DNA of 32,000 bases from Candidatus Saccharimonadota bacterium (GCA_001790095.1 MGBH01000001.1:1184932-1216931), one strand, 5' to 3'; positions 8,802-32,000 are shown, counted from the first letter of the stretch. A program made the numbers and translations. The notes: generated by a model not told the origin, from the letters alone.

Positions 8802-8843
8802 GTTGCAAATAGTATAGCAGATTAAACAAAATAGAGCTGTTTA

Positions 8844-8883: not shown

Positions 8884-8892
8884 ATACAAAAA

Positions 8893-10843: not shown

Positions 10844-10983
10844 ATGAACATCTCTTGTAGATGTTCGAGGAGCGTTATGAATACGCGAGATTAGATCCTT
10901 TTATATTTATATATCTCATGGTGACAATTAATAATACTTATTTGTTACCTTGATCTCCTCGAAACAATTGGTAATTGTTTTCT

Positions 10984-11012
10984 ATTATACTCCCTATTAT
11001 CTAGTCATTCAA
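10984..11012 (-). promoter_or_regulatory. sigma70-like promoter for rny: TTGAAT-17 nt-TATAAT
   Basis: Minus strand -35 TTGAAT (plus coordinates 11007-11012), 17-nt spacer, TATAAT (10984-10989). This implies a leader of about 130 nt before the rny ATG (10843). Confidence 0.45.
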
Positions 11013-11025
11013 TTGTTTTTTTTGA

Positions 11026-11502: not shown

Positions 11503-12521
11503 TTCTTTACCGCGGTTTTTTCATGCACTGCTTTTGTGATATGATTTTTCAGTTTTTCATCAGATAAGAGTGTTTCTTTTACCTGTTCTTTACCCTGTCC
11601 AAGCATGCGGTCTTCAAAACGAATAAATGATCCACTTTTTGTAAGGACGCCGCTTGCGATAGCCGCATCGATTATTCCTTCTAATTTGTCAATTCCATCT
11701 CCGGTTATAGTAAACTCAGCGTCGCGAAATGGAGGAGCTATTTTATTTTTGACGATCTTTACCCGAACGCGTGTACCGTAGGGGATGTTGTTTTTTTTGA
11801 GTGTTTCAATTTTGCGGACATCCATTCGTACCGATGCATAGAATTTAAGAGCAAGTCCTCCTGAGGTTGTCTCAGGGTTGCCAAACATAATACCGATTTT
11901 CAGTCGAAGCTGATTGGTAAAAATGATGGTAGTTTTTGATTTAGAGACAATACCTGTTAATTTTCGAAGAGCTTGCGACATCAGTCTAGCTTGTAAACCC
12001 ATTTGGGCATCTCCCATCTCTCCCTCGATTTCAGCTTGTGGGACAAGGGCGGCGACTGAGTCTACAATGAGCAAATCTATTCCTCCTGAACGAATGAGTT
12101 GTTCAGTGATTTGAAGAGCCTGTTCACCCGTATCAGGCTGTGCAACAAGGAGATTCTCGACCTTTACTCCGATTTTACGTGCCCAAGCAGGATCAAGCGC
12201 GTGTTCGGCGTCAATGAACGCAACTACTCCATCATTTTTTTGTACTTCAGCAATAAGAGATAGACAAAGAGTTGTTTTTCCTGACGACTCTGGTCCGTAG
12301 ATCTCAATTATTCTTCCCTTCGGAATACCTCCGACACCAAGGGCAATATCAAGTGGTAAAATACCTGTCTTGATGACATCTATCGCGACTATGGGGTGAT
12401 CTCCCAGACGCATGATTGCTCCTTTTCCGAACTGTCTTTGTATTTGGTCAATCGCAAGATTAATTGCTTCGGTTTTTGGATTTTTTATATCTTTTGAATC
12501 GGTTTTTATATCTTTGCTCAT
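11499..12521 (-). CDS. recA: Recombinase RecA
   Basis: [12 protein letters not shown], Walker [20 protein letters not shown] and [23 protein letters not shown] motifs. The ORF track extends to a GTG at 12548. I prefer ATG 12521 (MSKDIKTD...) because a TACAAT -10-like box (12549-12554, minus) abuts the GTG. Confidence 0.95.
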
Positions 12522-12590
12522 ATAAAGTGATAATGAATTAATACCCACATTGTACTAGGTACTAAAGTAATGTCAATTGAAATATATACA

Positions 12591-14123
12591 TTAAAATTCT
12601 AACTCTTCTTTTATCCTATATTGTAATGCCTCCGCTATATGAGTTTGCTCGATGCTTTCTTGTTGAGCAAGATCTGATATGGTTTGGGCAACTTTTATTA
12701 TTTTAAAATATGACCTTGCAGATAAACATAGTTTAGATATAGCCTGTTTCAATAATTGAGTTGCTTCGTCTGTTAAGACACATAATTTTTTTATATCTCT
12801 TGGAGTCATCTCCCCATTCATCTTTATGCGTGGTGTTTGTAAAAACCGTTTTTTTTGCTGGAGGCGAGCTCTAAGTACACGATTTCGTATCGTCTCGCTT
12901 GACTCTCCGTTGATTTGAGACATGAGTTTTTCCTGTGACACAGGGGGAATATCTATATGGAGATCAATGCGGTCAAGAAGGGGGCCTGATAATTTTTTTT
13001 TGTATTTTAACACCGATCCAGGCATGCAACGACATTTTTTTGTCGGGTGTCCAAGGTATCCGCATTGACAAGGATTTGATGCAGCAAGAAGAAGAAATCG
13101 GCAAGGAAAAGTGAGGTTGCCTATTGCTCGCGATATTGAAATAGATCCATCCTCGAGCGGTTGTCGAAGTGACTCAAGCACTGATCTTGGGAATTCAGGA
13201 AATTCATCCAAAAAAAGAACTCCTCGGTGGGCAAGCGAGATTTCTCCTGGTCTTGGATTTGTTCCTCCTCCTATAAGCCCGATACGTGATGTTGTGTGGT
13301 GTGGACTCCTGAAGGGTCTTTGAACTATGAATCCGTGATTGCTTACAAGCCCAACGGCTGAGTACATCTTTGAGACATCCAGTATCTCATCTTTATCCAT
13401 AGGAGGAAGGATCGATGGGAATGCGCGAGAAAGCATAGTTTTACCGGCTCCGGGTACTCCTTTTAAATGGAGGTTGTGGAATCCAGCCGCAGCAATTTCA
13501 AGAACACGCTTAGCTTGATTTTGTCCTTTTATCTCTTCAAAATCAAACTCCCACATGGTTTGACACGTAAACGATTCAAGATCAACGTGAGGATGGGGGA
13601 GTATTGGTTTCTCCCCGCTTATATGCAGAACCAAATCTTCAATGTTTTTGAGCGGGAATACCGTAAGATTATCCATAATTGCGGCTTCTTTTGCATTTAG
13701 TGCGGGTACAAAAAGATGAGTGATCCCTTGCTTTTGTGCCATTGCAGCAATAGATATGATTCCAGATACTTCTCTTATTTTTCCTTCAAGAGATAGTTCG
13801 CCGATAAAAAGGGAATCTTTCAGAATATCTTTTTTAATCATACCCGATGCTGCTAATATGCCTACTGCGATTGGTAAGTCAAAACTCGCCCCTTCTTTTG
13901 GTATATCTGCTGGAGCCAAATTCACCGTAATACGTGAATCTGGCATCTCAAAGGAGGTATTAATTATTGCGGTTCTCACCCGGTCTTTTGCTTCTTCTAC
14001 GGCTTTATTTGGAAGACCGACCAAATTAAAAGTTGGGAATCCGCGGGAAGCTACGTCAACCTCAACTTCAATCAATACACCATCGAGTCCAATCGTAGTC
14101 CCTGACAATATTTTTGCGAGCAT
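12591..14123 (-). CDS. comM: YifB/ComM-family Mg-chelatase-like AAA+ ATPase
   Basis: N-terminal Lon/ChlI-like domain, Walker A GVPGAGKTML, Walker B VLFLDEFPEF, Cys cluster CQCGYLGHPTKKCRC and C-terminal Mg-chelatase tail; 510 aa. Confidence 0.92.
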   Translation of the reverse strand: MLAKILSGTTIGLDGVLIEVEVDVASRGFPTFNLVGLPNKAVEEAKDRVRTAIINTSFEMPDSRITVNLAPADIPKEGASFDLPIAVGILAASGMIKKDILKDSLFIGELSLEGKIREVSGIISIAAMAQKQGITHLFVPALNAKEAAIMDNLTVFPLKNIEDLVLHISGEKPILPHPHVDLESFTCQTMWEFDFEEIKGQNQAKRVLEIAAAGFHNLHLKGVPGAGKTMLSRAFPSILPPMDKDEILDVSKMYSAVGLVSNHGFIVQRPFRSPHHTTSRIGLIGGGTNPRPGEISLAHRGVLFLDEFPEFPRSVLESLRQPLEDGSISISRAIGNLTFPCRFLLLAASNPCQCGYLGHPTKKCRCMPGSVLKYKKKLSGPLLDRIDLHIDIPPVSQEKLMSQINGESSETIRNRVLRARLQQKKRFLQTPRIKMNGEMTPRDIKKLCVLTDEATQLLKQAISKLCLSARSYFKIIKVAQTISDLAQQESIEQTHIAEALQYRIKEELEF

Positions 14124-14232
14124 GCTTCTTCACTATATGTAAGTTTTCTCTTCAACACCATCGCATATATGCTACAAAAAAAGTAATTGGATTGTTATGA
14201 AAAAATAAACCAGCATATAGTACAATTAATAA

Positions 14233-15975
14233 ATGAAGTTTGTTGAATTGGCTGCTTATTTTGAAAAGATTGAACATGTCTCTTCGCGTTTGACTATTAC
14301 CTCTCTTCTTGCCGAACTTTTTAATAAACTGTCTCCTGAAGAACTGGAGAAGACTGTGTATTTATTACAAGGAAAGGTGGTGCCTTCCTTCCAAAAAATT
14401 GAGTTTGGAATGGCAGAAAAAACGGTTATTAAGGCGATAGTTTTAGCTCTCAACATCGATAAATCTTATTTTGAGAAAGAATCAAAAAAAATGGGTGATT
14501 TAGGAAAAGCGGTTGAGTTCTTTAAAAAACAATTTATTTCATTCGAAGAAAAAGCTCTTACTATTCTTGATACACACAAAGAGCTGTATAAAATCGCTGT
14601 GGCAGGTGGAGACAAATCACAGGAGTATAAAATAAACTCTCTCTCTTTCCTTATTCGTCAACTTGATCCATTATCAACAAGATATTTAGTGAGGATTCCG
14701 CTTGCTTTGATGCGGTTAGGTTTTTCAGATATGACTGTTCTTGATGCATATTCTTGGATGATTGGGGGTGATAAGACTTTAAGACCTTTGATAGAACATG
14801 CATATCACGTGAGGCCTGATTTAGGATATATAGGGCGAATTTTAAAAGAAAAAGGCATTAAAGAAATGCAAAAAATTCAACCTGTCATATGTACTCCGAT
14901 TATTATGATGAGGGCTGAGCGGTTATCATCAGGTAAGGAGATCATTGACCAGATTGGAGAGTGTGCTATCGAACCAAAATATGATGGTTTCAGACTCCAA
15001 ATCCACTATAAAAAAGAAAACAATAAAGCGGAGGTGAGGCTTTTTTCAAGAAGTCTAGAAGATGTAACCTATATGTATCCGGATGTCATTGAAGGGGTAA
15101 AAAAACAGATTATTGCAAAAGAAATAATATTTGAGGGGGAGGCTATTGGATTTGATCCGACAACCGGAAGTTTTTTACCTTTTCAAGAGACAGTACAACG
15201 GAAACGAAAATATGACATCATACAAAAAGCAAAAGAAATACCGCTAAAACTTTTTTCATTTGATCTGCTTTACCTTAACGGTATAAATTATATTCATGAA
15301 CCATTTGTTGAAAGAAGAAAGCAGCTGGAAACAGTTATTCAGGCAAAAGGAGACGTCTTAAAAGACATCGTTGTTCTTGCGCCACACATTCTGATGAAAG
15401 ACCCTGTAAAAATAGAAAAGAACTTCGATACGGCAATTGCACAAGGACTTGAGGGGATAATCGCCAAAAAATTAAATGGCACATATCAACCAGGAGCCCG
15501 TGGTTGGAATTGGATCAAATTTAAACGTAGTTATTCTTCCAAAATCAATGATACAATCGATTGTTTAGTCATGGGATATGATTTTGGAAAAGGAAAAAGA
15601 ACAGATTTTGGTATTGGGGCATTTTTGGTTGGGATATTTGACAAGAGGCAAGAAAAATATGCTACTGTTGCCAAGATAGGAACAGGTTTAACTGATGAAG
15701 AATGGAGAACACTAGAATTAAGAAGTAAGAAATTGGAATCAAAGATAAAACCAGACAATTATTATGTAGATAAACAGATGGTATGTGATGTATGGATAAG
15801 TCCGTCTATCGTCGTTGAGATACGCGCCGATGAAATAACGAAATCACCAGTTCATACGGCAGGTTTAGCCTTAAGATTTCCGCGACTTGAACGGTTTCGT
15901 GATGATAAAAGAGAGACTGATACTACTACTTTATCAGAACTGAAGAAGATGCTTATTGAGCAAGAAAAGGTGTGA
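14233..15975 (+). CDS. lig: ATP-dependent DNA ligase, three-domain (DBD + adenylation + OB) Lig1/archaeal-like type
   Basis: Motif I EPKYDGFRLQIH (adenylated Lys), motif III FEGEAI, motif IV EGIIAKK, motif V WIKFKRSY. About 240 aa of N-terminal DNA-binding-domain-sized sequence precede motif I. Confidence 0.92.
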   Translation: MKFVELAAYFEKIEHVSSRLTITSLLAELFNKLSPEELEKTVYLLQGKVVPSFQKIEFGMAEKTVIKAIVLALNIDKSYFEKESKKMGDLGKAVEFFKKQFISFEEKALTILDTHKELYKIAVAGGDKSQEYKINSLSFLIRQLDPLSTRYLVRIPLALMRLGFSDMTVLDAYSWMIGGDKTLRPLIEHAYHVRPDLGYIGRILKEKGIKEMQKIQPVICTPIIMMRAERLSSGKEIIDQIGECAIEPKYDGFRLQIHYKKENNKAEVRLFSRSLEDVTYMYPDVIEGVKKQIIAKEIIFEGEAIGFDPTTGSFLPFQETVQRKRKYDIIQKAKEIPLKLFSFDLLYLNGINYIHEPFVERRKQLETVIQAKGDVLKDIVVLAPHILMKDPVKIEKNFDTAIAQGLEGIIAKKLNGTYQPGARGWNWIKFKRSYSSKINDTIDCLVMGYDFGKGKRTDFGIGAFLVGIFDKRQEKYATVAKIGTGLTDEEWRTLELRSKKLESKIKPDNYYVDKQMVCDVWISPSIVVEIRADEITKSPVHTAGLALRFPRLERFRDDKRETDTTTLSELKKMLIEQEKV

Positions 15976-20225: not shown

Positions 20226-22379
20226 ATGGACAGCAAGTTCATTCCGTCTTTACATGAGGCTCCTATTTATACATTTTGGGAAAATAGCGGCTTATTTAAA
20301 GCTTCACGTACAAACCCGGCAAAAAAACCGTTTTGTATAATTCTTCCTCCACCAAACGCAAACGGAAGCCTACACCTAGGACATGCGATGTTTACCTATG
20401 AAGACATCATGATACGCTTTCATAAGATGATGAAGGAAGAGACATTGTGGCTTTTGGGTTTAGACCATGCAGGGTTTGAAACACAGTATGTATTTGAGAA
20501 ACACCTTAAAAAACAAGGGAAAAGCCGTTTTGATTATCAAAGAGATGAGCTTTTTGGGATGATATTTGATTATGTAAATGAAAACAAGAAGAATATAAAA
20601 GGGCAGCTTCGGCGGCTAGGGTTTGCTCTTGATTGGAGTAGGGAAAAGTTTACTATGGATCCCGCAATCATAGAGATAGTGTATGGAACTTTCAAGAAAC
20701 TGTTTGACCGGGGATTGGTATATCGAGCAAACAGACTTATTAACTACTGTACTTTTTGCGGCACCTCACTTTCTGATTTAGAGGTAAATAATGTAGAAAA
20801 GGTAGGGGTTTTGCACTACATTAATTACCCCCTTAAAACGGGTGGTTTTATCCAAATTGCAACGACAAGACCTGAGACGATACTGGGAGATGTGGCTGTC
20901 ATGGTGAATCCAAAAGATAAAAGACATAGGGGGGTAATTGGAAAAACGGTCATTTTACCCGTTTCAGGGAGAGAGGTTCCCATAATCGCAGATACATATG
21001 TTGACACGGAATTTGGTACTGGCGCGGTCAAAGTAACACCAAATCATGACTTCAATGATTTCGAAATTGGCAAAAAAAACAATTTACAGTATCCGCCTAT
21101 CATAAACTTTGCTGGACGGATACAAAACACGAATACATCATATGATGGTTTGAAAGTGTTTGCTGCGCGGGAAAAAATCATTGAGGAACTGAAAGAAAAA
21201 GGATTATGGGTAAAAGAAGAAAAAAATAACATGGTGGTAAAAAGTTGCTACAAATGCGGACGAGTCCTTGAACCGCTACCTAAGGAACAATGGTTTATAA
21301 AAGTTAAACCTTTGGCTGATCGTGCAAAAGGATTGGTGAAGAAGAAAGAAATAACCCTGTTTCCTAAACGTTTTGAAAAACAACTCATTCGCATCCTTGA
21401 TGAATTTATCGATTGGAATATATCAAGACAGGTGGTGTGGGGGATACGAATACCGGCATATAGGTGTAAAAAAATGTCAAATGTCCCCACTTCGCTAAAG
21501 CTTCGAGGGGCAAGCAAAAGTCAAAAGTGGTTCGTGAGTATTGAAAAACCTAAGAAATGTCAGATTTGTGGTGAATGTGATTTCATACAGGATGAGGATA
21601 CGTTTGATACATGGTTTTCTTCATCACAATGGCCTTTTGCTACCCTTATGACTGAGGGAAAAAAAACATATGAATACTTTTATCCGACCGCAGTTATGGA
21701 GACGGGTCATGACATTTTACGAGCATGGGTGGCTCGGATGATGATGATAGGTGATTTCGTCACAAACAAACCTCCCTTTAAAACTGTTTTTCTTCACGGG
21801 ATGGTACGGGATGCTAAGGGTCAAAAAATGAGCAAAAGTAAAGGTAATGTAATGGATCCGATCCAATTGGTAGATAAATACGGCGCTGATGCATTACGCG
21901 CTGCACTCATTTTCGGTACAAAAGAAGGAGGAGATGTATCGCTATCAGAAGAAAAAGTAAAAGGCATGAGGAATTTTGCAAATAAAGTATGGAATGTAGG
22001 ACGATTTATTGAGCTAAACTCCAAATCCCAAAATCCAAATTCCAAACAAATTCCAAGCCCCCAATCAAAAATTATTGTTGAGCTAGAAAAAGAAGCGACT
22101 GAGTTGAAAAAGAAATACATGAATTATATGAAGAGATATCGTTTTTCACAGGCACTAAACGACCTACATGAGTTCATCTGGCACAGATTTGCTGATTATT
22201 ATATCGAGCAGTTGAAAGAAGAACTCAAAAATGGTAACATACAAGTTCTTGATACATTGAAATGTGTGTATCTTGATAACATTAAGATGCTTCATCCATT
22301 TATGCCTTTTATGACTGAGGCAGTGGGGCAGGTATTTTACGGCAAACAAACATCCTTGTTACAAATTGGATTTACTTAA
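20226..22379 (+). CDS. valS: Valyl-tRNA synthetase (compact, 717 aa)
   Basis: HIGH motif [24 protein letters not shown], editing-domain motifs [10 protein letters not shown] and [26 protein letters not shown], and KMSKS motif KMSKSKGN. There is no C-terminal coiled-coil extension. Confidence 0.92.
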
Positions 22380-22380
22380 T

Positions 22381-22524
22381 ATGGCAACCAAACGAACGTA
22401 TCAGCCTAAAAAAAAGAAGAGAATACGAAAGCACGGATTCATGAAGCGCATGAGCACTCATGATGGGCGAAATGTGTTAAAAAGAAGAAGACAAAAGGGA
22501 AGAAAAAAATTAATTGTTGTCTAA
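22381..22524 (+). CDS. rpmH: 50S ribosomal protein L34
   Basis: Hand translation: [47 protein letters not shown] (47 aa, below the ORF-track cutoff). It matches the L34 pattern K-R-T-[FY]-Q-P...HGF..RM.T..GR.VL..RR.KGRK.L. It starts 1 nt after the valS stop. Confidence 0.93.
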
Positions 22525-23409: not shown

Positions 23410-23892
23410 ATGGATAAAACAACGGTGGTAAAAGCAGAGACAGAAGAACTATTAAAAAAATTAGTGGAAGCATACACTTTAGAAGTAAACGAACAGGAAG
23501 GCGCATTTCAGATCATTATCAAGACTGAAGAAGCTCCAACTATAATCGGACGCCACGGAGAGACCATACGAGCGATCCAAAAGATACTTGAAGTTATCTT
23601 ATATAAAAAACTTCAAGAATCAGTACATGTCCTTATCAATGTAAATGATTATCGTGAAAAACAGCAGGAAAGGCTTGAGTACATGGCTTCTCAATACGCA
23701 GATAAAGTCAACGAGTCCCGCCAACCTGAAAATGTGTTTCACCTTTCCTCATATGAAAGGCGGATTATTCACCAATATATAACTTCAAACTATCCTGATC
23801 TTGCAAGCTACTCAGTTGGAGAAGGACGTGACCGCAAACTTGTGATAGACTTGAAAGAGAATGCACCCAAAACAGAAAGCACAGAAGTTTAA
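23410..23892 (+). CDS. jag: Jag/KhpB-like RNA-binding protein (KH + R3H)
   Basis: KH-like IIGRHGETIRAIQKILE and R3H ERRIIHQYITSNYPDLASYSVGEGRDRKLVI. It sits in the classical position downstream of yidC. Confidence 0.88.
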   Translation: MDKTTVVKAETEELLKKLVEAYTLEVNEQEGAFQIIIKTEEAPTIIGRHGETIRAIQKILEVILYKKLQESVHVLINVNDYREKQQERLEYMASQYADKVNESRQPENVFHLSSYERRIIHQYITSNYPDLASYSVGEGRDRKLVIDLKENAPKTESTEV

Positions 23893-24095
23893 TCCGATAT
23901 TTATTCTTTTCCTTCCTGCGATATTTGTATTTGACGTTGTATATTATATGTATACTCGGTCTACCTGTTTTCAATGTGGAAATATGGGTGAATTTATCAA
24001 GACTTCTTCCCTCACTTTTTACACTTTAAATCAAACCGTACAGATGCTTTTCGCTAAAAAAGTCACAAAGTAGATGGTGTAATTCTGCTCAAGAA

Positions 24096-24104
24096 TGCTA
24101 CAAT
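24096..24104 (+). promoter_or_regulatory. Extended -10 element TGcTACAAT, 6 nt upstream of the ATG of the 1224-aa gene (leaderless-type arrangement)
   Basis: TGCTACAAT at 24096-24104, ATG at 24111. No purine-rich SD lies between them (atatacct). Confidence 0.45.
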
Positions 24105-24110: not shown

Positions 24111-27100
24111 ATGGCAGCAACAAACCCGGAACATCATACAGGAGCACCGACAGAAAACGACACATTAAAAGCTGAGGTAGCAAGACAGTCCGCATCACAG
24201 CTCGTTGATGAAGTAAAGAAGATAGGAAAGATGGCCGGTGAAGTCAAACGCGCCGTGGATGCTTCAGTTGATGCTGCAAGAAAGGCTCCTGACACGTTTG
24301 AAGGAGACAAACAAGATAAAGATACTGCACGAGGTCGAGCTCACAGCGTGCAACGAACAGTAAAAAAAATCTTAATGGCAGCAAGATTCCCTGATAAATT
24401 AAAGCCAATCCCTGGAGAGGACGCACAAAGAGAAGTCGTGACACCGATCGCTTCTTCACTTCTCAAACAGTTAAGTAGTCGCATTGATCCGGAATATGAT
24501 GTATCAGAACAGACAGCCCCTTATCTACATCAAATCATAGATAAGGTACTTAGCGGAGGGATAGCAAACGCTGATGATCTGAAAATTGAGCTTGATAAGC
24601 TAAACAACCTTAAGCTTGTGAATCCGGACCTGTATAAAGAGGTACAGGAATCATTTGTTGAGGTCGCAAAAGATACAGGAGTGAGTGAAAAAGATGCAAA
24701 ACAGAAATTTAATGTTGAAGAGCCACCTGTAGAACAAACCCAACCCACGCCTGACAAACCAGCAGACCTGCCACCGCAAGAATTAACACCTGATCAACAA
24801 CGGGAACTTATGAATAAAGCAAGAGAAATGCAGGCGAGAGAGATGCATGGAGAAGGTAGAACTGAGTTTGATGCTTCATGGGGGCGTTATTTTTCTGATT
24901 ATTTTTCTGTATCAGACCAACCCCTTTTAAAAGCCATCTTTGACCCTGAAGAATTTAAATCATATGTTGAGACTGCTAAAGAAGAGGTTGCAAGACAGTT
25001 GGGATTGGCAAAAACCGATGATGATGTTGGAAAAAAGGTATCAAAAGATATAGAGCGGGGTGTGGTTGAACTATTTGGTAAGCTATATACACGACTTGAC
25101 CATGAACGGGCAAGTGAATTCTTTGAGCAGATAGAACAACAAGACGTAATGTCAGGTATCTTGCCTGCTAAAAATGCACTGAAGCGGCGACTGGAGAAGT
25201 TGGCAACAGCTCTTCACCATGATGGAGATTTGGGTTTATTTAAAGATGGAGAGATAAAGTCTGAGAATTCAGATATACCTTTTAAAGACAAAGAGGGGAA
25301 AGTAAGACTTAAACCACGACTTCTTATCCATCCATATCCTGAAGCAAAAAGGGCATCGACCTCAGACTTCATACACTATCTTGATTTAAAGATTGACACA
25401 TATATTGATACGCGCAAATATACTCACGATGCGCGAGCTATTTTTTTACATCCAGTTGATCCAGAAAAAGGTTTTTATTCACAACTTGCCCGTTTTGCCG
25501 AACAGATGACGACCGTTGATTTTGATCAAATGTTTCTGCTTCCTGATGCCGACATCTTTCAAAGCGCACTTCTGCTTTATGATAAACATGTTGATGAGAT
25601 GTTTGCAAAAAATGATTGGCGTCATGCTCCGACCATGTTTCAACCAAAATCAGGAAGTCATCGAAATCAGCTAGAAGAAGACGTATTGCATAGATTAAAA
25701 CAAATGTATGGAAAAGATGTGAGTGATGCTCGACTTGATGCCGCCGTCACCATGGCTGTTGGAGCATCAAGAGGAATGTTTTTGACAGAGATAGAAAAAG
25801 CGGCTTTTGCCGATCCGCATGTAAATGAAGATGGAAGCATAACGTATGCGAGCTATTACAATAATGACACTTCAGCTCTTAACGCTTTTAATCCTATGCA
25901 TACGTTTTTGCGCTTTCAGGGAGTCAGAAGCACAGATCCTATCTTATTTATGCCTGTTGAAGGAGATAAATTTCAAGGATCAGTCTTTACTGATCATCGA
26001 ACTATGTGGAAAAACATGATGGCATATAAGGATGCATTTATAAGCGGTCGGAAAGGTGCCGGTTTAAAAGAAGGAGAGGTATTGTTTGCAGACTACCTTA
26101 TGAATATCGGAAAAGTAGGAGGTCCTATGGAGCGGAAAGGTTGGAGAACTACCTACATATTACAACCTCTTTATTATAAGGATAAAAAGGGTATAACAGA
26201 GGGAGAACAAACAAGTGAAATTTTTGATCATGTACATACGTGGCAAAGATTTGAAAATATCGGTTATGAGATAGCACAAGACTTTGTTACAAAACTGAAG
26301 CCTGATTTTAAGGGGGCATATGCAGGAGGCGCGGGTTTAGCAAACGAACGATACGTAGACCAAAAAAAGGCACTTTTTAGCTACATATTTGACAGATATT
26401 TTACTGATCAGAAAGACACAACAACAGTAGATGCATATTTAAAAAACATTAGAAAAAACGCTGAGGCGGAAGTATGGAGAAGTATCAAGGAAGGCAAGGC
26501 GCCAGCTCCAAATGATGTAAGGGCAGAGATAGAGTCTCATGTCACTATGACATTTCTTAACCGGACTCTTTCTCGCTTGGTAGCTCAACGAATTCCCTCT
26601 AAAATCCTTCGGATAGATCGTGACCGGATGAGTGAAGCTGGAAAAAGCAGATGGCGTACCATCGCTGAGGAGATGTTTCCTGAAAAGGAGGTTGGAGATA
26701 AACAATCTGAGAAGTTTGACATGGTAATAAAAGATCTTCTTTTCGCTGAACAACTGCTTAGATCTGAAGTAAGCGCAAAGATGAGAGAGATAAAAAAACT
26801 ACCCGAAAGTGAACACTGGAAGTTTGGCCATATTTCATATGAACTAACCCAAGAGACTGCAAGAGCTTTGCTTGCTGCAAAAGGATTTGATCAGGCACAG
26901 ATAGATAAAGTATGTACTCTTCTTGGCAAGATCGAGACTCATTTTACCCATAATACGAATTTCTTGGATAAGACACTTCTTAAATTTGTACAAGCAGGGG
27001 ATACTATTGTTAAAGAATACAAATTTACATTTGGACTTGAAGAGCTTGATATGAGTTTTATCCCGTGGAGAGCTGCCGGAAACAGGATGTTACCGCGTGC

Positions 27101-27785
27101 AATAGGAGACATATCGGTTACAGAAAAAGCAGTCGCAGGAGAAATCATGAAGCTACCCGCGACTTTGAACAAGATAGCGATAGATGGTAAGCACGACTTT
27201 TCTCCTATCCTTGAAATCTGTGAAAAAGTGTACGGCTCCATGGAGGGTATCATCGGTCCTGATTATGCTCACAGACTAGTACATCACATAGCAGCAACTA
27301 CTATAAACTATTTTAAAAAAGATACGGTAGCCAGGTGGGCACATGGATTATTTGGTATAGGACGGAGAAACTCTCTTGCAGCGGAGCGAGCAGGAGGAAG
27401 TTCAAGAGTATGGGAATGGGATAGTACTGATATAGATCGTTTTTGTGTTGCACTTGAATCAAGAAGTGTTCTGCCAAATAGCAGTAGAAATCCATCGAAT
27501 CCAAAGCCTGAGTATGCTCCTATTTATATCAATCGGCACTTTTTTGGAAAACCAATCAAACTTCCCATGGAAATCAAAATGTTTGGAAGATCTATTCCAC
27601 TTTTTAGGAAGCGCAAACCTGACTTTGCATGGACTATAAAGAATTTACGTGATAAATTTGGAGGAAATTGGAAAGATATCGCTTTCGATATGGTAAACAA
27701 ATACATACCATTTGTTATTGCATGGCTATTATTAAAATATATAAAAGATGCACTCGATGAATCAGAAGGAAAAAAGAAAAAATAG
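24111..27785 (+). CDS. Giant orphan protein (1224 aa), no signal peptide, short hydrophobic segment near the C-terminus
   Basis: Uninterrupted 3.7-kb ORF with an ATG start. Charged, Ala-rich N-terminal ~200 aa, then a Pro-rich linker (EEPPVEQTQPTPDKPADLPPQELTPDQQ), then ~950 aa of aromatic-rich globular-looking sequence, ending in YIPFVIAWLLLKYI + DALDESEGKKKK. I found no Walker A or other motif I recognise. Confidence 0.8.
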   Translation: MAATNPEHHTGAPTENDTLKAEVARQSASQLVDEVKKIGKMAGEVKRAVDASVDAARKAPDTFEGDKQDKDTARGRAHSVQRTVKKILMAARFPDKLKPIPGEDAQREVVTPIASSLLKQLSSRIDPEYDVSEQTAPYLHQIIDKVLSGGIANADDLKIELDKLNNLKLVNPDLYKEVQESFVEVAKDTGVSEKDAKQKFNVEEPPVEQTQPTPDKPADLPPQELTPDQQRELMNKAREMQAREMHGEGRTEFDASWGRYFSDYFSVSDQPLLKAIFDPEEFKSYVETAKEEVARQLGLAKTDDDVGKKVSKDIERGVVELFGKLYTRLDHERASEFFEQIEQQDVMSGILPAKNALKRRLEKLATALHHDGDLGLFKDGEIKSENSDIPFKDKEGKVRLKPRLLIHPYPEAKRASTSDFIHYLDLKIDTYIDTRKYTHDARAIFLHPVDPEKGFYSQLARFAEQMTTVDFDQMFLLPDADIFQSALLLYDKHVDEMFAKNDWRHAPTMFQPKSGSHRNQLEEDVLHRLKQMYGKDVSDARLDAAVTMAVGASRGMFLTEIEKAAFADPHVNEDGSITYASYYNNDTSALNAFNPMHTFLRFQGVRSTDPILFMPVEGDKFQGSVFTDHRTMWKNMMAYKDAFISGRKGAGLKEGEVLFADYLMNIGKVGGPMERKGWRTTYILQPLYYKDKKGITEGEQTSEIFDHVHTWQRFENIGYEIAQDFVTKLKPDFKGAYAGGAGLANERYVDQKKALFSYIFDRYFTDQKDTTTVDAYLKNIRKNAEAEVWRSIKEGKAPAPNDVRAEIESHVTMTFLNRTLSRLVAQRIPSKILRIDRDRMSEAGKSRWRTIAEEMFPEKEVGDKQSEKFDMVIKDLLFAEQLLRSEVSAKMREIKKLPESEHWKFGHISYELTQETARALLAAKGFDQAQIDKVCTLLGKIETHFTHNTNFLDKTLLKFVQAGDTIVKEYKFTFGLEELDMSFIPWRAAGNRMLPRAIGDISVTEKAVAGEIMKLPATLNKIAIDGKHDFSPILEICEKVYGSMEGIIGPDYAHRLVHHIAATTINYFKKDTVARWAHGLFGIGRRNSLAAERAGGSSRVWEWDSTDIDRFCVALESRSVLPNSSRNPSNPKPEYAPIYINRHFFGKPIKLPMEIKMFGRSIPLFRKRKPDFAWTIKNLRDKFGGNWKDIAFDMVNKYIPFVIAWLLLKYIKDALDESEGKKKK

Positions 27786-27808: not shown

Positions 27809-28588
27809 ATGATACGGAACATAACATTAATTAGCATTTTTTGTTTGTTTTTTCTTCTAAAATCAAACGTTTTAGCACAGTCTCCTACTTCAAGCTGTCC
27901 AGGGTTTAATGGAGGACCAGAACCACTGATGTTGGGTGTTAACTGTGGCGTAATAAACAGTAGTAATCCCTGTAGTGCGAAATGTTGTGCCGAACAACCC
28001 TTTTCAGTACACGCGTCAATACCTGGAATATTTAATGTTCTTCCTGGTGCTCAAGATGTTGTTGATGATTTTTTGAGAGACAAATTAAATCCAATACTTG
28101 AATATAAAAGGCAGGTTACTATGCAACCGTGTATCAATATGGGTAGTCCTACTACCCCCGGAGATCTTTCAAATGCAGCCTGTGTTTGTTTAGAACCTAC
28201 TCCAGCCACCTTATCTGCAATACTTAATTTGTGTCAGAATATAAAAAATACAAATGAGAGAGATGCATGTAATAATTGTTTGCAAGGAAATACTTCTGAC
28301 CGTAAGGTAGGTGTATGGACGGGTATCGGTTGTGTATATAGTGATATAAATGGATTTATTCAACATACTCTTTTAGGTTGGGGTATAGGGTTGGCTGGGG
28401 GAATATCTATGCTATGTATCCTCTATGCGGCTTTCATGATGCAAACATCCAGAGGTAATGCAGAGGTGGTAAAAAAAGCTCAACAACTCATGACTTCATG
28501 CATAACAGGTCTTATGCTTATTATATTTTCAGTATTCATACTCAGATTAATTGGAATCACAATCCTAAGAATACCCGGATTTAACTAA
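27809..28588 (+). CDS. Secreted Cys-rich protein ending in a VirB2/TrbC-like (T4SS-pilin-like) two-helix hairpin
   Basis: Signal peptide MIRNITLISIFCLFFLLKSNVLA|QS and an ectodomain with 12 Cys. The C-terminus is GWGIGLAGGISMLCILYAAFMMQTSRGNAEVVKKAQQLMTSCITGLMLIIFSVFILRLIGITILRIPGFN. That is, helix - short polar loop (S-R-G-N-x-E-x-V-K-K-A) - helix, the topology of TrbC/VirB2-type pilins. The family assignment comes from memory of that pattern, not from a search. Confidence 0.7.
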   Translation: MIRNITLISIFCLFFLLKSNVLAQSPTSSCPGFNGGPEPLMLGVNCGVINSSNPCSAKCCAEQPFSVHASIPGIFNVLPGAQDVVDDFLRDKLNPILEYKRQVTMQPCINMGSPTTPGDLSNAACVCLEPTPATLSAILNLCQNIKNTNERDACNNCLQGNTSDRKVGVWTGIGCVYSDINGFIQHTLLGWGIGLAGGISMLCILYAAFMMQTSRGNAEVVKKAQQLMTSCITGLMLIIFSVFILRLIGITILRIPGFN

Positions 28589-28596: not shown

Positions 28597-30333
28597 TTAT
28601 TTTTTCTCTCCTTGTTCAGTGGGATTATCCGATTTAGCTTTATATCGAGCCGTATCAGGCGCAGGCATTCCGCTTGTTCCTATCATCTGACCAATTGTTT
28701 TACCAGTAATCGCACTGAGACCCATACTTAAAGTACTTATTTGGCCAACCAAGCTCAGTCCTCCACCAGCCGCAGAACCTGCGCCTCCAAAGAATGTCCC
28801 TAAGCCAAGATTTATTGGAAGAGGCTTTATGCCGAGTGAATCCTTAACTAGTTTTACAAGATCAGGTATCATAAACATTATTCCTAACCCCAACAGTGTT
28901 GAAAATGCCAAAGGATCAATGCCTAGCAAAAAGGGTGGAAACCAGAAGTCGCCAGGATAGGCAAGAGAGTTCATAATGACGTTTCCAACAAGAAACACAG
29001 TAATAATCACAGGAAAAGTAAGTAATTCAGCGAGAAGATTCTTAAACCAAGTAGTAAAACCGGACTTTCCAGGTATTGCATCAATAAGAATAAAAAGTGG
29101 AGCGGTTACGATTAAAAATAATATTTGAAGATATGCACGAAACAACATAAAAAACACACGAAATACCAGAGCAATAATAGTAAAATAGATAACTAGTCCT
29201 ATGATGACTCCGGCACCATATAACATAAGATATGCAAATATTGCAGCAAAAAGAGTCGTTGAACCAACAGACAATAAAGTACTACCAACAAGTTTTCCTA
29301 AATTTATTCCAAATGTGGCAGCCTCAGCACCCATGTTATCAACTAATTCCATGACTTTAAAAGGATATGTGAGAAGTATTGAGAAATCTTTTATTAAAAA
29401 AAAGCCTGCAAATGCTCCACTCACTAATCTAAACACATTATTTACATATGTTGGAAATAGAGTCATAAAGGCAGTTCCAACATCAGTGATAGTTCCAAGA
29501 AATACATCACCTGAGATCCCAGTTAAGTTTTTTCTAATTGGTTGGAAAGAAAGATATATGTTCCAGGGCGTTGCTGATAAATATTCATTTTGCATACTAC
29601 CTACATCGTAATTGGCGCCTCCATTACTTAAAATTGATATTATTATTGCGATTAATATATACATTAGATCAATCAAGAACCCGGCAATTGCAAAGGAAAA
29701 AGTTATAAGCAGAAGTGAAGTTACGATCTTGGGAAGTGCATTCTCAACAGAAATGACTGTTTGAGGATTAATTTTCGTACGAAACATAATCATGAAACCA
29801 ATTGAAACAAGGATAATGACAAGGATAAGATATGCGATATCCCTAAATATTTTCCATACATTCATAAGAGGCTTTATTGCTCCAAATCCCATACCTTCAG
29901 ACGCATATGATTTGGGTACAAATCCAGCATCTTGAAGATTGGTATATACCCAGTATATGCCTGATGCAGGTGGGTTCGCAAAAGGTATAGTGATAAGTTT
30001 AGAGAGATATCCTGAAACACTTTTTGAGACGTTTTTATCACCATCACTAGGATTATCTGTACATGCTTCACCGCTAAAAAAACAGGTATGCATGCGATAG
30101 ATAAAAAGAGCGATTTTACCACTCTTCTTAGCATTAAGCTCCTTATTATTAAGCGCTTTATAAATCTGTTTTCTTGCCAGTTGAGTGACATTTTTTGGAT
30201 TGTATTGTGGTTTATTTTTAGAGAAAAATGAAGCAAAAATCCCAATAATAAAAGCGTAGACTATAAGTACAATTATAGCTTTTTTGCCAAAATTAAAACA
30301 TGAACGAAATAACTGTTTTACCATCGGTATCAT
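28597..30333 (-). CDS. Polytopic membrane protein with Gly-rich C-terminal tail, possibly VirB6/TrbL-like
   Basis: 578 aa. N-terminal anchor, ~110-aa extracytoplasmic segment, then at least 8 hydrophobic helices (e.g. IAYLILVIILVSIGFMIMF, SLLLITFSFAIAGFLIDLMYILIAIIISIL, VIIGLVIYFTIIALVFRVFFMLF). The tail is GLGTFFGGAGSAAGGGLSLVGQ... It is the last gene of the minus-strand operon, 13 nt after the 159-aa ORF. Confidence 0.65.
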   Translation of the reverse strand: MIPMVKQLFRSCFNFGKKAIIVLIVYAFIIGIFASFFSKNKPQYNPKNVTQLARKQIYKALNNKELNAKKSGKIALFIYRMHTCFFSGEACTDNPSDGDKNVSKSVSGYLSKLITIPFANPPASGIYWVYTNLQDAGFVPKSYASEGMGFGAIKPLMNVWKIFRDIAYLILVIILVSIGFMIMFRTKINPQTVISVENALPKIVTSLLLITFSFAIAGFLIDLMYILIAIIISILSNGGANYDVGSMQNEYLSATPWNIYLSFQPIRKNLTGISGDVFLGTITDVGTAFMTLFPTYVNNVFRLVSGAFAGFFLIKDFSILLTYPFKVMELVDNMGAEAATFGINLGKLVGSTLLSVGSTTLFAAIFAYLMLYGAGVIIGLVIYFTIIALVFRVFFMLFRAYLQILFLIVTAPLFILIDAIPGKSGFTTWFKNLLAELLTFPVIITVFLVGNVIMNSLAYPGDFWFPPFLLGIDPLAFSTLLGLGIMFMIPDLVKLVKDSLGIKPLPINLGLGTFFGGAGSAAGGGLSLVGQISTLSMGLSAITGKTIGQMIGTSGMPAPDTARYKAKSDNPTEQGEKK

Positions 30334-30346: not shown

Positions 30347-30826
30347 TCATTTAAACCCAAATCTATCCAGCGGAATATTTGGGTAATTAGTATTAAGCCA
30401 CAGATCAAAGTCTTTTTTGTTAATATCCTTTGGCTCTTTAAGGGTAACGATAAAAATATCATTTGCATAGTCAAACGTAATGGTAAAAGAATCTTCGCTA
30501 AGGGGAGTTTTTTGTCGAAGCTCCCTTTTTTGGACAGCAAGATCAGTTTCTTCTTGAGGGATGTTTTGTTTTTCAAGTCCGCCGGTAAAGGTGGGGGCAA
30601 GGGGGGGAAGGGTTGGGAACGTATCGGGTCCCTGAGGTTCTTCATGAGGCGTAATATTAAGTTCTAACGGTTGTTTTGGTTCAATGAGTGTTGGAAGAGG
30701 AAGCTTAGTAGGTTTAGGTTGGGATGGAGTTTGTTTTTTTGTCTGTGGTATGAAAAGGATGATCACTATCAAAACAAGAAGAAATATAAAGGGAACGACG
30801 TAATAGAGTTTTATGTTTGAGTTCAT
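30347..30826 (-). CDS. Small anchored Pro-rich protein carrying the same ~45-aa domain as the shared module of the two paralogs
   Basis: 159 aa. TM anchor VVPFIFLLVLIVIILFI, a Pro-rich linker, then PLSEDSFTITFDYANDIFIVTLKEPKDINKKDFDLWLNTNYPNI. This aligns with PLEEEDFILDYAPNLSKLVVTRKTPQADASFAKWAKTQGYPRL of the 390-aa protein. It starts 1 nt after the upstream stop. Confidence 0.7.
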   Translation of the reverse strand: MNSNIKLYYVVPFIFLLVLIVIILFIPQTKKQTPSQPKPTKLPLPTLIEPKQPLELNITPHEEPQGPDTFPTLPPLAPTFTGGLEKQNIPQEETDLAVQKRELRQKTPLSEDSFTITFDYANDIFIVTLKEPKDINKKDFDLWLNTNYPNIPLDRFGFK

Positions 30827-30827
30827 A

Positions 30828-32000
30828 TTATTTTTTTACTCCAAAAGCTGCGATATATTTAGGAAATGGATAACGACTATTTTCATTTATGGGTGGAGTA
30901 GAGTTTTTACCATAGTAGGGGTCAAAAGCGTATATGTTGCCCTCCTCATCTATATCAGTGATCCAGAAATAATGTCCGCACCCGGCTTCACAATAACTTG
31001 CAAGTGCAAATATGGTCCACCCATTGTCTAAGTATGATCTAAAATCATCAATCACATCCTCCGCAATATATTTTGTAGCACTATAGGGGAGTATATAATC
31101 TGATGTTTTTACTCCATGACTACTTAAAGTTCCCTTAGCTACACCAAGACCTGTGCCACAACCTGCACCACCCACTGATTTATATATATCTACCACCTCA
31201 GGGGGAGTGTATTTTGTATCGATAAAGCTTGAAAGGATCATAGCAACAGTCGTTGGGCCACATCCGCCTCTGCAAATACTGCAGCTTTCAGTCAGCGGAT
31301 AATCATCATATGGTCCATCACATTGGGGATAGTAAATATATCCTCCATATGATTTAGGAGAAGAAGAACTGGAAGAACTTTTTGGTTTTTCCGTCACCCT
31401 CGGAGTCACTCCTCCCGTAACCATCACCGGCGGACGGATCATAAGACCAAACAAGGTAAACAGATCGGTAAGACCTTGTTCAGGGCTCTTGGTGACATAG
31501 GGAGTCTGTACTTCCTCCATGGTCTTATCCGAGATGATGGTGGTCTTGATATTGTCTACAAGGCGAGGATATCCTTGAGTCTTTGCCCACTTAGCAAATG
31601 AGGCATCAGCCTGAGGAGTCTTCCGGGTGACAACAAGCTTAGAGAGGTTGGGAGCATAGTCAAGGATAAAGTCCTCTTCTTCAAGAGGAAGAGAGAGGGA
31701 AGATTGTACTTCCTTCAGTGTTTGTTGTGCTTCCTGTTCTGTTTTCTGTTCTGCCTCTTTCCTTGCCTTCTGTTCTCTATCCTCCTCTACAAAAGAGGAG
31801 TTAGAAGAAGAGGAGGAAGAGAGAGATGAGGAGTATCTCTTATCTACTTGTACAGCTGTTGGAAAGGGAGTTGGAAAGGGAGAGGTTATCGAGGAGGACT
31901 CAGGCTTACTCTTTAGTAAAGATTGAATAAAAAATATACCTATCACAAGGATAAAGAGTATGGAAAGTGCAATGACAAGGTATTTTTTTGAGTTATTCAT
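30828..32000 (-). CDS. Membrane-anchored secreted modular protein, paralog B: shared N-terminal module + papain-fold Peptidase_C39-like cysteine peptidase domain
   Basis: 390 aa; the ATG is the last three bases of the window. The N-terminal ~190 aa are shared with paralog A. The C-terminal domain has CSICRGGCGPTTVAMILSSF (nucleophile Cys in a C-G-P-T context as in C39-like peptidases), CGHYFWITDID (His) and AFDPYYG (Asp/Asn candidate). Confidence 0.75.
   Translation of the reverse strand: MNNSKKYLVIALSILFILVIGIFFIQSLLKSKPESSSITSPFPTPFPTAVQVDKRYSSSLSSSSSSNSSFVEEDREQKARKEAEQKTEQEAQQTLKEVQSSLSLPLEEEDFILDYAPNLSKLVVTRKTPQADASFAKWAKTQGYPRLVDNIKTTIISDKTMEEVQTPYVTKSPEQGLTDLFTLFGLMIRPPVMVTGGVTPRVTEKPKSSSSSSSPKSYGGYIYYPQCDGPYDDYPLTESCSICRGGCGPTTVAMILSSFIDTKYTPPEVVDIYKSVGGAGCGTGLGVAKGTLSSHGVKTSDYILPYSATKYIAEDVIDDFRSYLDNGWTIFALASYCEAGCGHYFWITDIDEEGNIYAFDPYYGKNSTPPINENSRYPFPKYIAAFGVKK
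31422..31988 (-). repeat. Copy B of the intragenic direct repeat (partner 615..1169), 567 bp because of a 12-bp tandem duplication
   Basis: Identical by eye to copy A except for gttggaaagggagttggaaagggag (about 31858-31884) versus gttggaaagggag in copy A. This gives PFPTPFPT versus PFPT. Confidence 0.9.

What the first reader, a model, noticed from the sequence alone, without database searches (positions are those of the whole stretch)
24111..27785. 1224-aa orphan protein, apparently cytoplasmic, with leaderless-type promoter and C-terminal hydrophobic patch
This is the largest gene in the window and has no motif I can name: no P-loop, no signal peptide, no repeats. The domain order is a charged Ala-rich N-terminal ~200 aa, a Pro-rich linker, about 950 aa rich in W/F/Y/H, then YIPFVIAWLLLKYI and an acidic/basic tail. 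The hydrophobic patch is too short (about 11-14 residues) for a confident TM helix. It could be an amphipathic membrane-association element. The gene sits 23 nt upstream of the pilin-like gene, so it is a candidate cytoplasmic base, assembly factor or cargo of the adjacent envelope proteins. An in-frame 12-bp tandem duplication (24888-24911, YFSD-YFSV) shows that local slippage is tolerated.
Basis: partly seen in the sequence, partly recalled or inferred. Interest (0 to 1): 0.6.

Follow-up and report, generated by a model that had tools for sequence, protein, structure and literature searches.

The report
Uncharacterised giant membrane-tethered Roizmanbacteria protein
This is a real gene for a 1224-residue, mostly helical cytoplasmic protein with a C-terminal membrane anchor; it belongs to a sizeable, undescribed family confined to Roizmanbacteria-type ultrasmall bacteria, matches no known family or solved structure, and its function is unknown, though it always sits next to fast-evolving pilin-like envelope genes.

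Summary
It is not an orphan. An exhaustive profile search found 266 cluster representatives, nearly all full-length, and the named source genomes are Roizmanbacteria or Microgenomates. Pfam, NCBIfam, PHROGs, PADLOC and PDB sequences gave no match, and Foldseek against PDB and viral models gave none for a fairly confident AlphaFold model (pLDDT 75, pTM 0.70).

The architecture has three parts:
- an optional N-terminal helical module, present in 0, 1 or 3 copies;
- an integrated core of about 940 residues with 54 near-invariant positions;
- a C-terminal hydrophobic helix, the only hydrophobic segment in the family. It is a canonical tail anchor in distant members and short (11-14 residues) in this protein.

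The gene has a conserved extended -10 box 6 nt before its ATG, but leaderless-type starts look normal for this genome. In all 20 species-level loci with sequence on both sides it lies between yidC-jag-small ORF and a Cys-rich VirB2-like pilin plus a polytopic membrane protein, and it evolves as fast as those envelope genes.

My best guess is a membrane-tethered cytoplasmic partner of that envelope module (about 0.4). No VirB4 or VirD4 lies nearby, and housekeeping genes are equally syntenic, so the link is inferred and not shown.

The parts
24096..24104 (+). Extended -10 promoter element TGCTACAAT, ending 6 nt before the ATG; no Shine-Dalgarno motif (leaderless-type start)
   Evidence: Read directly. 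TGnTAnAAT is conserved at the same distance (one nt closer in one locus) in 11 of 14 orthologous loci with a defined start, plus 3 more by eye. The simple -35/-10 scan did not list it, because there is no -35. The TSS has not been mapped.
24111..27785 (+). CDS of the 1224-aa protein (stop codon included)
   Evidence: It is 100% identical to NCBI hypothetical protein A2334_00025. Full-length homologues were found.
24111..24710 (+). N-terminal helical module (residues 1-200): charged, Ala-rich, weakly conserved, with variable copy number in the family
   Evidence: Helical in the AlphaFold model. Mean column identity is 0.2-0.3. An HMM of this module hits three tandem copies in P0129 and P0130. 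About 10 members start at profile position about 190-240 and so lack it. The only weak hits are to coiled-coil arms of tRNA synthetases.
24711..24860 (+). Pro-rich, hypervariable linker (residues 201-250)
   Evidence: 16% Pro. pLDDT is below 50. 60% of this stretch is gapped across 133 family members.
24861..27701 (+). Conserved core (residues 251-1197): mostly alpha-helical with two small beta elements; all 54 near-invariant positions fall between residues 282 and 1200
   Evidence: The AlphaFold model has pLDDT 75 and pTM 0.70. Conserved columns include H439, D472, D479, K492, E562, D568, R601, H629, R675, W678, R679, E715, R827, P829, R839, E880, R884, R996, D1071, S1088 and W1101-E-W1103. 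There are no internal repeats. Residues 420-760 fold poorly when modelled alone (pLDDT 59), so the core is one integrated unit.
24887..24909 (+). 12-bp direct repeat x1.9 encoding YFSD-YFS
   Evidence: Tandem Repeats Finder. There is no length difference from orthologues, which share Y-F-x-x-Y-[FL], so it is not evidence of a tolerated insertion.
27702..27743 (+). C-terminal hydrophobic helix Y1198-I1211 (YIPFVIAWLLLKYI), the putative membrane anchor
   Evidence: It is the only hydrophobic segment in 135 of 135 full-length family members; 70 of 135 reach KD19 >= 1.6. The uncharged run is 11 residues here and 22-25 in distant members. It lies within the terminal helix of the model, at pLDDT 63-70.
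27744..27782 (+). Charged tail KDALDESEGKKKK with a conserved G-K-K-K end
   Evidence...GKKK-type endings dominate the family. The tail has a median net charge of +2.
23861..24073 (+). Upstream neighbour: conserved 70-aa small membrane protein ORF (one TM helix plus a TRSTC[FW]xC motif) that overlaps the 3' end of jag and fills the 'intergenic' gap
   Evidence: Orthologues are present in 14 loci. The NCBI record calls it as a gene (L006).
27809..28588 (+). Downstream neighbour: 259-aa protein with a signal peptide, a Cys-rich ectodomain (10 invariant Cys) and a C-terminal two-TM VirB2-like pilin domain
   Evidence: Alignment. PF18895 T4SS_pilin is hit in 16 of 17 orthologues, best E 5.7e-8; the window copy scores 15.1 bits against a cut-off of 26.6. 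There is also a weak NCBIfam NF045849 hit.
28597..30333 (-). Neighbour: 578-aa polytopic membrane protein, always adjacent; no detectable relation to VirB6 or any other family
   Evidence: No Pfam or PDB-sequence hit with a profile of 18 orthologues.
30347..32000 (-). Neighbours: a 159-aa N-terminally anchored protein (30347-30826) and a 390-aa membrane-anchored Peptidase_C39_2-like protein (30828-32000); both are conserved in the block

Best explanation
The gene encodes a cytoplasmic, largely alpha-helical protein of about 1200 residues. It belongs to a previously undescribed family found in Roizmanbacteria-type Microgenomates (CPR/Patescibacteria).

It is probably transcribed from its own extended -10 promoter as a leaderless mRNA. 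It has no signal peptide. A conserved C-terminal hydrophobic helix holds it at the inner face of the cytoplasmic membrane. That helix is a true tail anchor in divergent members and a shorter, possibly shallow or partner-embedded anchor in this one.

I think it most likely works there as the cytoplasmic partner (platform, assembly or regulatory factor) of the fast-evolving envelope gene set that always follows it. That set comprises a Cys-rich VirB2-like pilin, a 578-aa polytopic membrane protein, a 159-aa anchored protein and a C39-like peptidase. In this picture the variable N-terminal module acts as an adaptor.

Shown: the gene, the family, the architecture, the conserved anchor, the fixed locus and the lack of known relatives. 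Inferred: the topology, the leaderless transcript and above all the functional link to the envelope genes.
For: - Real, conserved gene: 21 close homologues and 266 cluster representatives, nearly all full-length.
- Strong constraint: 54 columns are at least 85% identical across 133 representatives that fall to about 20% overall identity.
- Integrated fold: a confident single-chain model (pLDDT 75, pTM 0.70), while an excised central piece does not fold alone.
- Anchor: the C-terminal hydrophobic helix is the sole hydrophobic segment in 135 of 135 members. In distant members it has 22-25 uncharged residues, positive upstream flanks and 4-8-residue tails.
- Promoter: a conserved extended -10 box 6 nt from the ATG, with no terminator predicted before the next gene.
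- Locus: the order target, pilin-like gene, polytopic protein holds in every locus with enough flank (20 species-level genomes, including one where the target is only 23% identical). The pilin gene is on the same strand at 4-115 nt in all but one.
- Evolutionary rate: mean identity to the window is 42% for the target. The envelope genes score the same (pil259 44%, mem578 43%, p159 41%, C39 42%), while the housekeeping neighbours score higher (ValS 61%, YidC 65%, Jag 69%).
- The neighbour is a bona fide PF18895 T4SS_pilin family member. VirB2-like pilin arrays are a known feature of Microgenomates and lie near the origin and rpmH (10.1101/2025.01.22.634366).
Against: - The whole region is collinear in these genomes, housekeeping genes included, so adjacency does not discriminate.
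- All loci come from one lineage (ValS at least 50% identical). Co-occurrence outside conserved synteny could therefore not be tested.
- No VirB4, VirD4 or other T4SS component was found in the 24 kb of the window upstream of the target or in about 20 kb downstream of it.
- The polytopic neighbour shows no VirB6 signal.
- The pilin gene may have its own -10 box and is inverted in L026.
- In this clade the hydrophobic run is only 11-14 residues and the tail is net positive, which fits a C-out tail anchor poorly.
- Many invariant His, Asp, Glu and Arg residues suggest a specific activity, not a passive scaffold.
Confidence: 0.4

Rival explanations
1. It is a lineage-specific enzyme or housekeeping factor that acts at the cytoplasmic face of the membrane, for example in lipid or cell-wall precursor handling, cell division, or tethering of the chromosome origin. 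On this reading it sits beside the pilin-like genes only because the whole origin-proximal region is collinear.
For: - 54 near-invariant positions, rich in Arg (8), Asp (5), Glu (5) and His (2), are spread over 900 residues.
- It is single-copy at a fixed locus among housekeeping genes (valS, rpmH, yidC, jag upstream; recF downstream) in every genome seen.
- It has its own promoter.
- No T4SS ATPase lies nearby.
Against: - It diverges much faster than its housekeeping neighbours: 42% against 61-73% mean identity, and down to 23% where ValS is still 54%.
- The variable N-terminal module (0, 1 or 3 copies) is unusual for a core enzyme.
- No catalytic motif or known fold was recognised.
Confidence: 0.3
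2. It is a translocated cargo or effector: a large protein exported by a type IV-like apparatus, with the positively charged C-terminus as the secretion signal and the hydrophobic helix inserting into a host membrane.
For: - It evolves quickly.
- It has a conserved K-rich extreme C-terminus after a hydrophobic helix.
- It has a modular N-terminus.
- Pilin-like genes are adjacent.
- From general knowledge, T4SS substrates often carry positively charged C-terminal signals.
Against: - It is strictly single-copy with a large invariant core, which is not the usual pattern for effectors.
- No VirB4 or VirD4 lies nearby.
- In distant members the C-terminus is a plain 22-25-residue TM segment with a 4-8-residue tail and no K-rich end.
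- Nothing else marks it as a secreted protein.
Confidence: 0.1
3. The C-terminal helix is not a membrane element at all. It is a buried or partner-binding helix, and the protein is a soluble cytoplasmic alpha-helical assembly.
For: - In the window clade the uncharged run is only 11 residues, flanked by Lys, and the KD19 score of 1.56 is below the usual 1.6 threshold.
- The model shows one continuous 32-residue terminal helix.
Against: - The segment is the only hydrophobic stretch in every member, and it lengthens to 22-25 uncharged residues with KD up to 2.5 in other clades.
- Its lower pLDDT (63-70) than the core suggests that it does not pack against the body.
Confidence: 0.15

Closest known systems
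Bacterial tail-anchored membrane proteins (e.g. E. coli ElaB/YqjD, TssL/DotU; from general knowledge)
   Same: It has no signal peptide, a large cytoplasmic N-terminal body, and a single hydrophobic helix within the last ~30 residues. Distant family members have a 22-25-residue segment with a positive upstream flank and a very short tail.
   Different: There is no sequence or fold relation. This is a topological class, not a family. In the window clade the hydrophobic run is only 11-14 residues and is followed by a 13-residue charged, net-positive tail. The protein is 5-10 times larger than typical bacterial examples.
Patescibacterial / monoderm (MPF-FATA-like) type IV secretion loci with VirB2-like pilin arrays (Quinonero-Coronel et al. 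2025, 10.1101/2025.01.22.634366; Wang et al. 2023 as cited in PMC12857230)
   Same: It is origin-proximal (next to rpmH-yidC-jag). PF18895 pilin-like genes lie immediately downstream and again about 9 kb further on. A peptidase that could act on the cell wall is in the block.
   Different: The target matches no T4SS component model and has no P-loop. No VirB4, VirD4, VirB3 or VirB8 was seen in the 24 kb of the window upstream of the target or in about 20 kb downstream of it. The polytopic neighbour gives no VirB6 signal. The genome is listed as VirB4-positive, but the location is unknown.
Large alpha-solenoid scaffolds (exportins, FANCI, huntingtin, Nup188)
   Same: These were the top, non-significant Foldseek neighbours of the full model, and they are also long, irregular all-helical architectures.
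   Different: E-values are at least 0.037, probabilities at most 0.2 and TM-scores about 0.1. There are no sequence repeats. The many invariant polar residues are unlike solenoid scaffolds. This is a resemblance of general shape only.

Membership tests
VirB4/VirD4-type T4SS ATPases | Walker A P-loop and a match to the CagE_TrbE_VirB, AAA_10 or T4SS-DNA_transf profiles | tested here: not met
   There is no [AG]xxxxGK[ST] motif. Neither the window protein nor 36 diverse family members gave a Pfam or NCBIfam hit.
Any curated protein family (Pfam-A, NCBIfam, PHROGs, PADLOC) | A score above the curated or significance threshold | tested here: not met
   The only hit was a sub-threshold coiled-coil match (Phe_tRNA-synt_N, 16.8 bits against a 22.3 cut-off) in the N-terminal module.
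Any protein with a solved structure | Sequence-profile or fold similarity to a PDB chain | tested here: not met
Tail-anchored membrane proteins (topological class) | No N-terminal signal peptide, and a single hydrophobic segment that lies at the extreme C-terminus | tested here: met
   This holds in 135 of 135 full-length members.
Tail-anchored membrane proteins (topological class) | A hydrophobic segment long enough to span the bilayer (about 18-20 or more residues), with charges favouring the N-in orientation | tested here: inconclusive
   The window clade has an 11-residue uncharged run (14 with one Lys), a tail of net +2 and a neutral upstream flank. The distant clade has 22-25 residues, upstream flanks of +3 to +5 in three of the four members shown and -3 in the fourth, and 4-8-residue tails. 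No experiment is available.
HEAT/ARM-type alpha-solenoid repeat proteins | Tandem helical sequence repeats, or significant fold similarity to solenoids | tested here: not met
   hhalign between eight slices gave at most 10% probability. Foldseek hits to solenoids were non-significant.
Leaderless mRNA genes | A -10 element placed about 6-7 nt from the start codon, with no Shine-Dalgarno motif | tested here: met
   One search shows that this is typical of genes in the window.
Leaderless mRNA genes | A transcription start mapped at the A of the ATG | not testable with these tools
   This needs 5'-end mapping (dRNA-seq or metatranscriptome reads).
PF18895 T4SS_pilin (applies to the 259-aa neighbour, not the target) | A match to the profile over the two-TM hairpin | tested here: met
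   16 of 17 orthologues match, best E 5.7e-8. The window copy itself is sub-threshold (15.1 bits against 26.6).

The most novel reading that the evidence does not exclude
The family is the cytoplasmic, membrane-tethered core of a Roizmanbacteria-specific machine. This machine would assemble or operate VirB2-like pilins without a neighbouring VirB4-type ATPase. If so, it is a new kind of envelope apparatus component with a new fold, possibly central to how these ultrasmall bacteria contact their hosts.
Probability: 0.15. Interest if true: 0.8.

Novelty: categorically new. Interest (0 to 1): 0.45.

Why it matters
Patescibacteria make up a large share of bacterial diversity, and much of their proteome has no assigned function. 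Their VirB2-like pilins and T4SS genes are the best current leads to how they live on host cells; they are essential in the one genetically tractable species, according to literature cited.

This protein is about 1200 residues long, strongly constrained yet fast-evolving, and membrane-tethered. It has no detectable relatives and a fixed position beside such pilin genes, which makes it a concrete, testable candidate for lineage-specific envelope or host-interaction machinery. It also gives a ready-made family definition: 266 clusters, 54 signature positions and a domain map.

What is new here is a protein family and probably a fold, not a demonstrated mechanism. Unannotated lineage-specific families are common in CPR genomes, so the surprise value for a specialist is moderate.

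Tried and rejected
- **Divergent VirB4/VirD4 or another T4SS component:** rejected. There is no P-loop and no profile hit in 36 diverse members.
- **Defence-system protein:** no PADLOC hit for the target or its neighbours.
- **Phage or plasmid gene:** no tblastn hit in 50,697 phage and 72,556 plasmid records, no PHROG hit and no shift in composition.
- **Alpha-solenoid repeat protein:** no sequence repeats, and only non-significant Foldseek neighbours.
- **VirB6 identity of the 578-aa neighbour:** no support from Pfam on 18 orthologues or from a PDB-sequence profile.
- **VirB4 just outside the window:** I walked about 20 kb downstream through related contigs and found the ClpB-like gene, small ORFs, a second pilin, an AA-kinase/methyltransferase, RecF, RadC, DinB, LexA, EF-G, S7, S12 and RpoC, but no VirB4.
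- **Recent slippage duplication at 24887-24909:** rejected as an insertion, because there is no indel against orthologues.
- **Domain-level modelling:** residues 420-760 modelled alone gave pLDDT 59 and pTM 0.34. That is too poor to search with, so I did not use the last fold-search job.

Dead ends:
- Two of the three word-indexed homology searches, made with distant members, returned only the query.
- The GTDB scan with the broad alignment failed for lack of a conserved 7-mer.
- Literature searches for tail-anchored or leaderless features in CPR found nothing relevant.
Full report
**1. The observation**

The ORF at 24111-27785 (+) is the longest in the window and encodes 1224 residues.
- There is no Walker A motif and no N-terminal hydrophobic segment.
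- The single hydropathy peak is at residues 1190-1208 (Kyte-Doolittle 19-residue mean 1.56; next best 0.92).
- Residues 1-200 are charged and Ala-rich, residues 200-250 are Pro-rich, and the body of about 950 residues contains 14% W/F/Y/H.
- The sequence ends with YIPFVIAWLLLKYI and KDALDESEGKKKK.

The next gene starts 23 nt after the stop codon. Tandem Repeats Finder reports a 12-bp unit x1.9 at 24887-24909. Self-BLAST and profile-profile comparison of eight slices of the family alignment found no internal repeats.

**2. Source and family**

The protein is identical to a 'hypothetical protein' of a Candidatus Roizmanbacteria genome. The window is the last 32 kb of the 1.217-Mb contig MGBF01000001.1.

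It is not an orphan:
- The word-indexed search found 20 further full-length homologues at 40-64% identity.
- An exhaustive HMM search of 1.84 billion cluster representatives found 266 at E<0.001 and 173 at E<1e-30. Nearly all are 1150-1300 residues long and match end to end.
- A scan of GTDB species representatives returned 24 loci. Those with informative names are Roizmanbacteria, Microgenomates or Patescibacteria; many TPA records carry an implausible 'Gammaproteobacteria' title.

**3. No known relatives**

Sequence searches gave nothing:
- Pfam, NCBIfam, PHROGs and PADLOC have no hit beyond a sub-threshold coiled-coil match in the N-terminal module. This holds for the window protein and for 36 diverse members.
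- Profiles of 21 and 48 sequences found no PDB chain apart from coiled-coil noise.

An AlphaFold2 model of residues 25-1224 is reasonably confident (mean pLDDT 75.4, pTM 0.70). It is mostly helical, with small beta elements at model residues 352-391 and 1111-1144. Foldseek found nothing at E<=0.001 in the PDB. The top hits are large alpha-solenoids at E>=0.037 with TM about 0.1. The BFVD viral library also gave nothing.

**4. Anatomy from the family**

*(a) N-terminal module.* This module of about 190 residues is weakly conserved. About ten members lack it, and it is present in three tandem copies in P0129 and P0130. It is therefore a discrete accessory module.

*(b) Linker.* The Pro-rich linker is hypervariable, with 60% gaps.

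*(c) Core.* The core, residues about 251-1197, carries all 54 columns that are at least 85% identical across 133 representatives whose overall identity falls to about 20%. They are rich in Gly, Arg, Asp, Glu and Trp. Examples are H439, D472, D479, E562, D568, R601, H629, R675-x-G-W-R679, E715-x-x-G718, R827-x-P829, R839, E880-x-x-x-R884, R996, D1071, S1088 and W1101-E-W1103. Residues 420-760 modelled alone gave only pLDDT 59 and pTM 0.34. Together with the pTM of the full model, this suggests one integrated architecture and not a string of separate domains.

*(d) C-terminal helix.* This is the only hydrophobic segment in all 135 full-length members, and 70 of them reach KD19 >= 1.6 (maximum 2.54). 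In distant members (P0157, P0165, P0166, P0168) it is a 22-25-residue uncharged run with a 4-8-residue tail, and three of the four have a +3 to +5 upstream flank. That is a canonical tail anchor. In the window clade the run is 11 residues (14 with one Lys), followed by a 13-residue charged tail of net +2 that ends in GKKK(K).

Membrane association is thus a family trait. For this particular protein I cannot decide between a full transmembrane tail anchor and a shallower or partner-embedded helix.

**5. Promoter**

TGCTACAAT lies at 24096-24104, 6 nt before the ATG, with no Shine-Dalgarno motif. TGnTAnAAT sits at the same distance (one nt closer in L032) in 11 of 14 orthologous loci with a defined start, and in three more by eye. 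This is good comparative support for an own promoter and a leaderless mRNA.

It is not a peculiarity of this gene. Only 1 of 24 window genes has even a weak SD-like motif, and many have -10-like hexamers at -11 to -14, including the 259-aa and 578-aa neighbours.

The 218-nt 'gap' upstream is not empty. It holds a conserved 70-aa small membrane-protein ORF that overlaps the end of jag.

**6. Context**

Every locus with enough flank shows the same order:

DUF2298, valS, rpmH, yidC, jag, small ORF, TARGET, 259-aa pilin-like (+), 578-aa polytopic (-), 159-aa (-), C39-like peptidase (-), ClpB-like (+), small ORF, about 227 aa, 105-aa PF18895 pilin, AA-kinase/methyltransferase, recF.

Further points on the context:
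- The 259-aa family has a signal peptide, ten invariant cysteines and a two-TM hairpin. It hits PF18895 T4SS_pilin in 16 of 17 orthologues.
- The 578-aa family matches nothing, VirB6 included.
- No VirB4 or VirD4 lies in the 24 kb of the window upstream of the target or in about 20 kb downstream of it. The genome is listed as VirB4-positive in a published survey. That survey also reports origin-proximal T4SS genes and abundant VirB2-like arrays in Microgenomates.
- The most divergent locus (target 23% identical) keeps the same neighbours, but its ValS is still 54% identical. All examples are therefore from one lineage with general collinearity, and adjacency alone cannot establish a functional link.

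One piece of evidence does discriminate: evolutionary rate, measured as mean identity to the window proteins.

| Gene | Mean identity (%) |
|---|---|
| Target | 42 |
| Pilin-like 259 aa | 44 |
| Polytopic 578 aa | 43 |
| 159-aa protein | 41 |
| C39-like peptidase | 42 |
| 227-aa protein | 40 |
| DUF2298 | 60 |
| ValS | 61 |
| YidC | 65 |
| Jag | 69 |
| ClpB-like | 73 |

The target belongs to the fast-evolving envelope class and not to the housekeeping class.

**7. Interpretation**

I commit to a cytoplasmic protein tethered to the membrane by its C-terminus that works with the adjacent envelope module (confidence about 0.4). The rivals are:
- an unrelated membrane-proximal enzyme or housekeeping factor (0.3), favoured by the many invariant polar residues and the strictly single-copy, fixed locus;
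- a soluble protein whose terminal helix binds a partner (0.15);
- an exported cargo or effector with a positively charged C-terminal signal (0.1).

The '12-bp duplication shows slippage is tolerated' inference is not supported. Orthologues align through the site without an indel and share Y-F-x-x-Y-[FL].

**8. Novelty and score**

By every test available here the family and its fold have no known relatives, so I rate it categorically new as a protein family. The function is unresolved, such families are frequent in CPR genomes, and the structural search was limited to Foldseek against the PDB and BFVD. Interest is therefore moderate (0.45). The most novel reading not excluded is a new membrane-tethered core component of a VirB4-independent pilin apparatus; I give it about 0.15.

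Noticed in passing
window 23861-24073 (+): A conserved 70-aa ORF overlaps the 3' end of jag. It has one TM helix followed by a TRSTC[FW]xC motif. Orthologues are present in 14 related loci, but several records do not call it as a gene. It fills what looks like an intergenic gap before the target.
   Followed up: partly
whole window (24 genes checked): Almost no gene has a Shine-Dalgarno-like motif within 20 nt of its start. Many have TAnnnT hexamers 5-8 nt upstream, for example the ligase (TACAAT at -12), DUF2298 (TATAAT at -14) and the 578-aa gene (TAGAAT at -11). This suggests that leaderless or SD-independent initiation is the norm in this organism.
   Followed up: partly
window 27809-28588 (+): The pilin-like neighbour fuses a Cys-rich ectodomain of about 150 residues (10 invariant Cys) to a PF18895 VirB2-like two-TM hairpin. 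It is the only gene of the block found inverted, in one genome (L026 13625-14380, minus strand).
   Followed up: partly
L005 17924-21646 (just beyond the window end; same organism): The ClpB/ClpC-like ATPase is 1240 aa long. It has an N-terminal extension of about 200 residues and an insertion of about 280 residues between the AAA_2 core (645-788) and the D2-small domain (1071-1147). It is split into two ORFs in L002 and is only 956-986 aa long in L003, L031 and L034, which could reflect an intein or a mobile insertion. A second, shorter ClpB-like gene lies at window 2914-5055.
   Followed up: no
window 7266-15975: DNA-uptake and recombination genes are clustered here: DprA (7266-8363), RecX, RecA, a ComM/YifB-type Mg-chelatase-like helicase (12591-14123) and an ATP-dependent DNA ligase (14233-15975). 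RecF, RadC, DinB and LexA lie a further ~10 kb past the envelope block (L034).
   Followed up: no
window 5052-5438 (-) and 5463-7175 (+): Two more ORFs, of 128 aa and 570 aa, have no Pfam or PADLOC match. Only the 570-aa ORF was scanned against PADLOC.
   Followed up: no
window 22366-22524 (+): rpmH (ribosomal protein L34) lies directly before yidC, with no room for rnpA or yidD between them. The longest ORF starts at a TTG inside the end of valS, and the true start is probably the internal ATG (MATKRTYQ...).
   Followed up: no
P0129 (1700 aa) and P0130 (1648 aa), family members: These members carry three tandem copies of the N-terminal ~190-residue module (HMM i-E-values 1e-9 to 1e-4). About ten other members lack the module entirely.
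   Followed up: yes
records behind L006 and P0001: The identical protein is named after Roizmanbacteria RIFOXYB2_FULL_38_10 in one source, whereas assembly GCA_001790045.1, which holds this contig, is listed as RIFOXYA1_FULL_37_12. It is also found on 24 or more contigs from several samples. Many related TPA MAG records are titled 'uncultured Gammaproteobacteria', which is evidently a placeholder.
   Followed up: no
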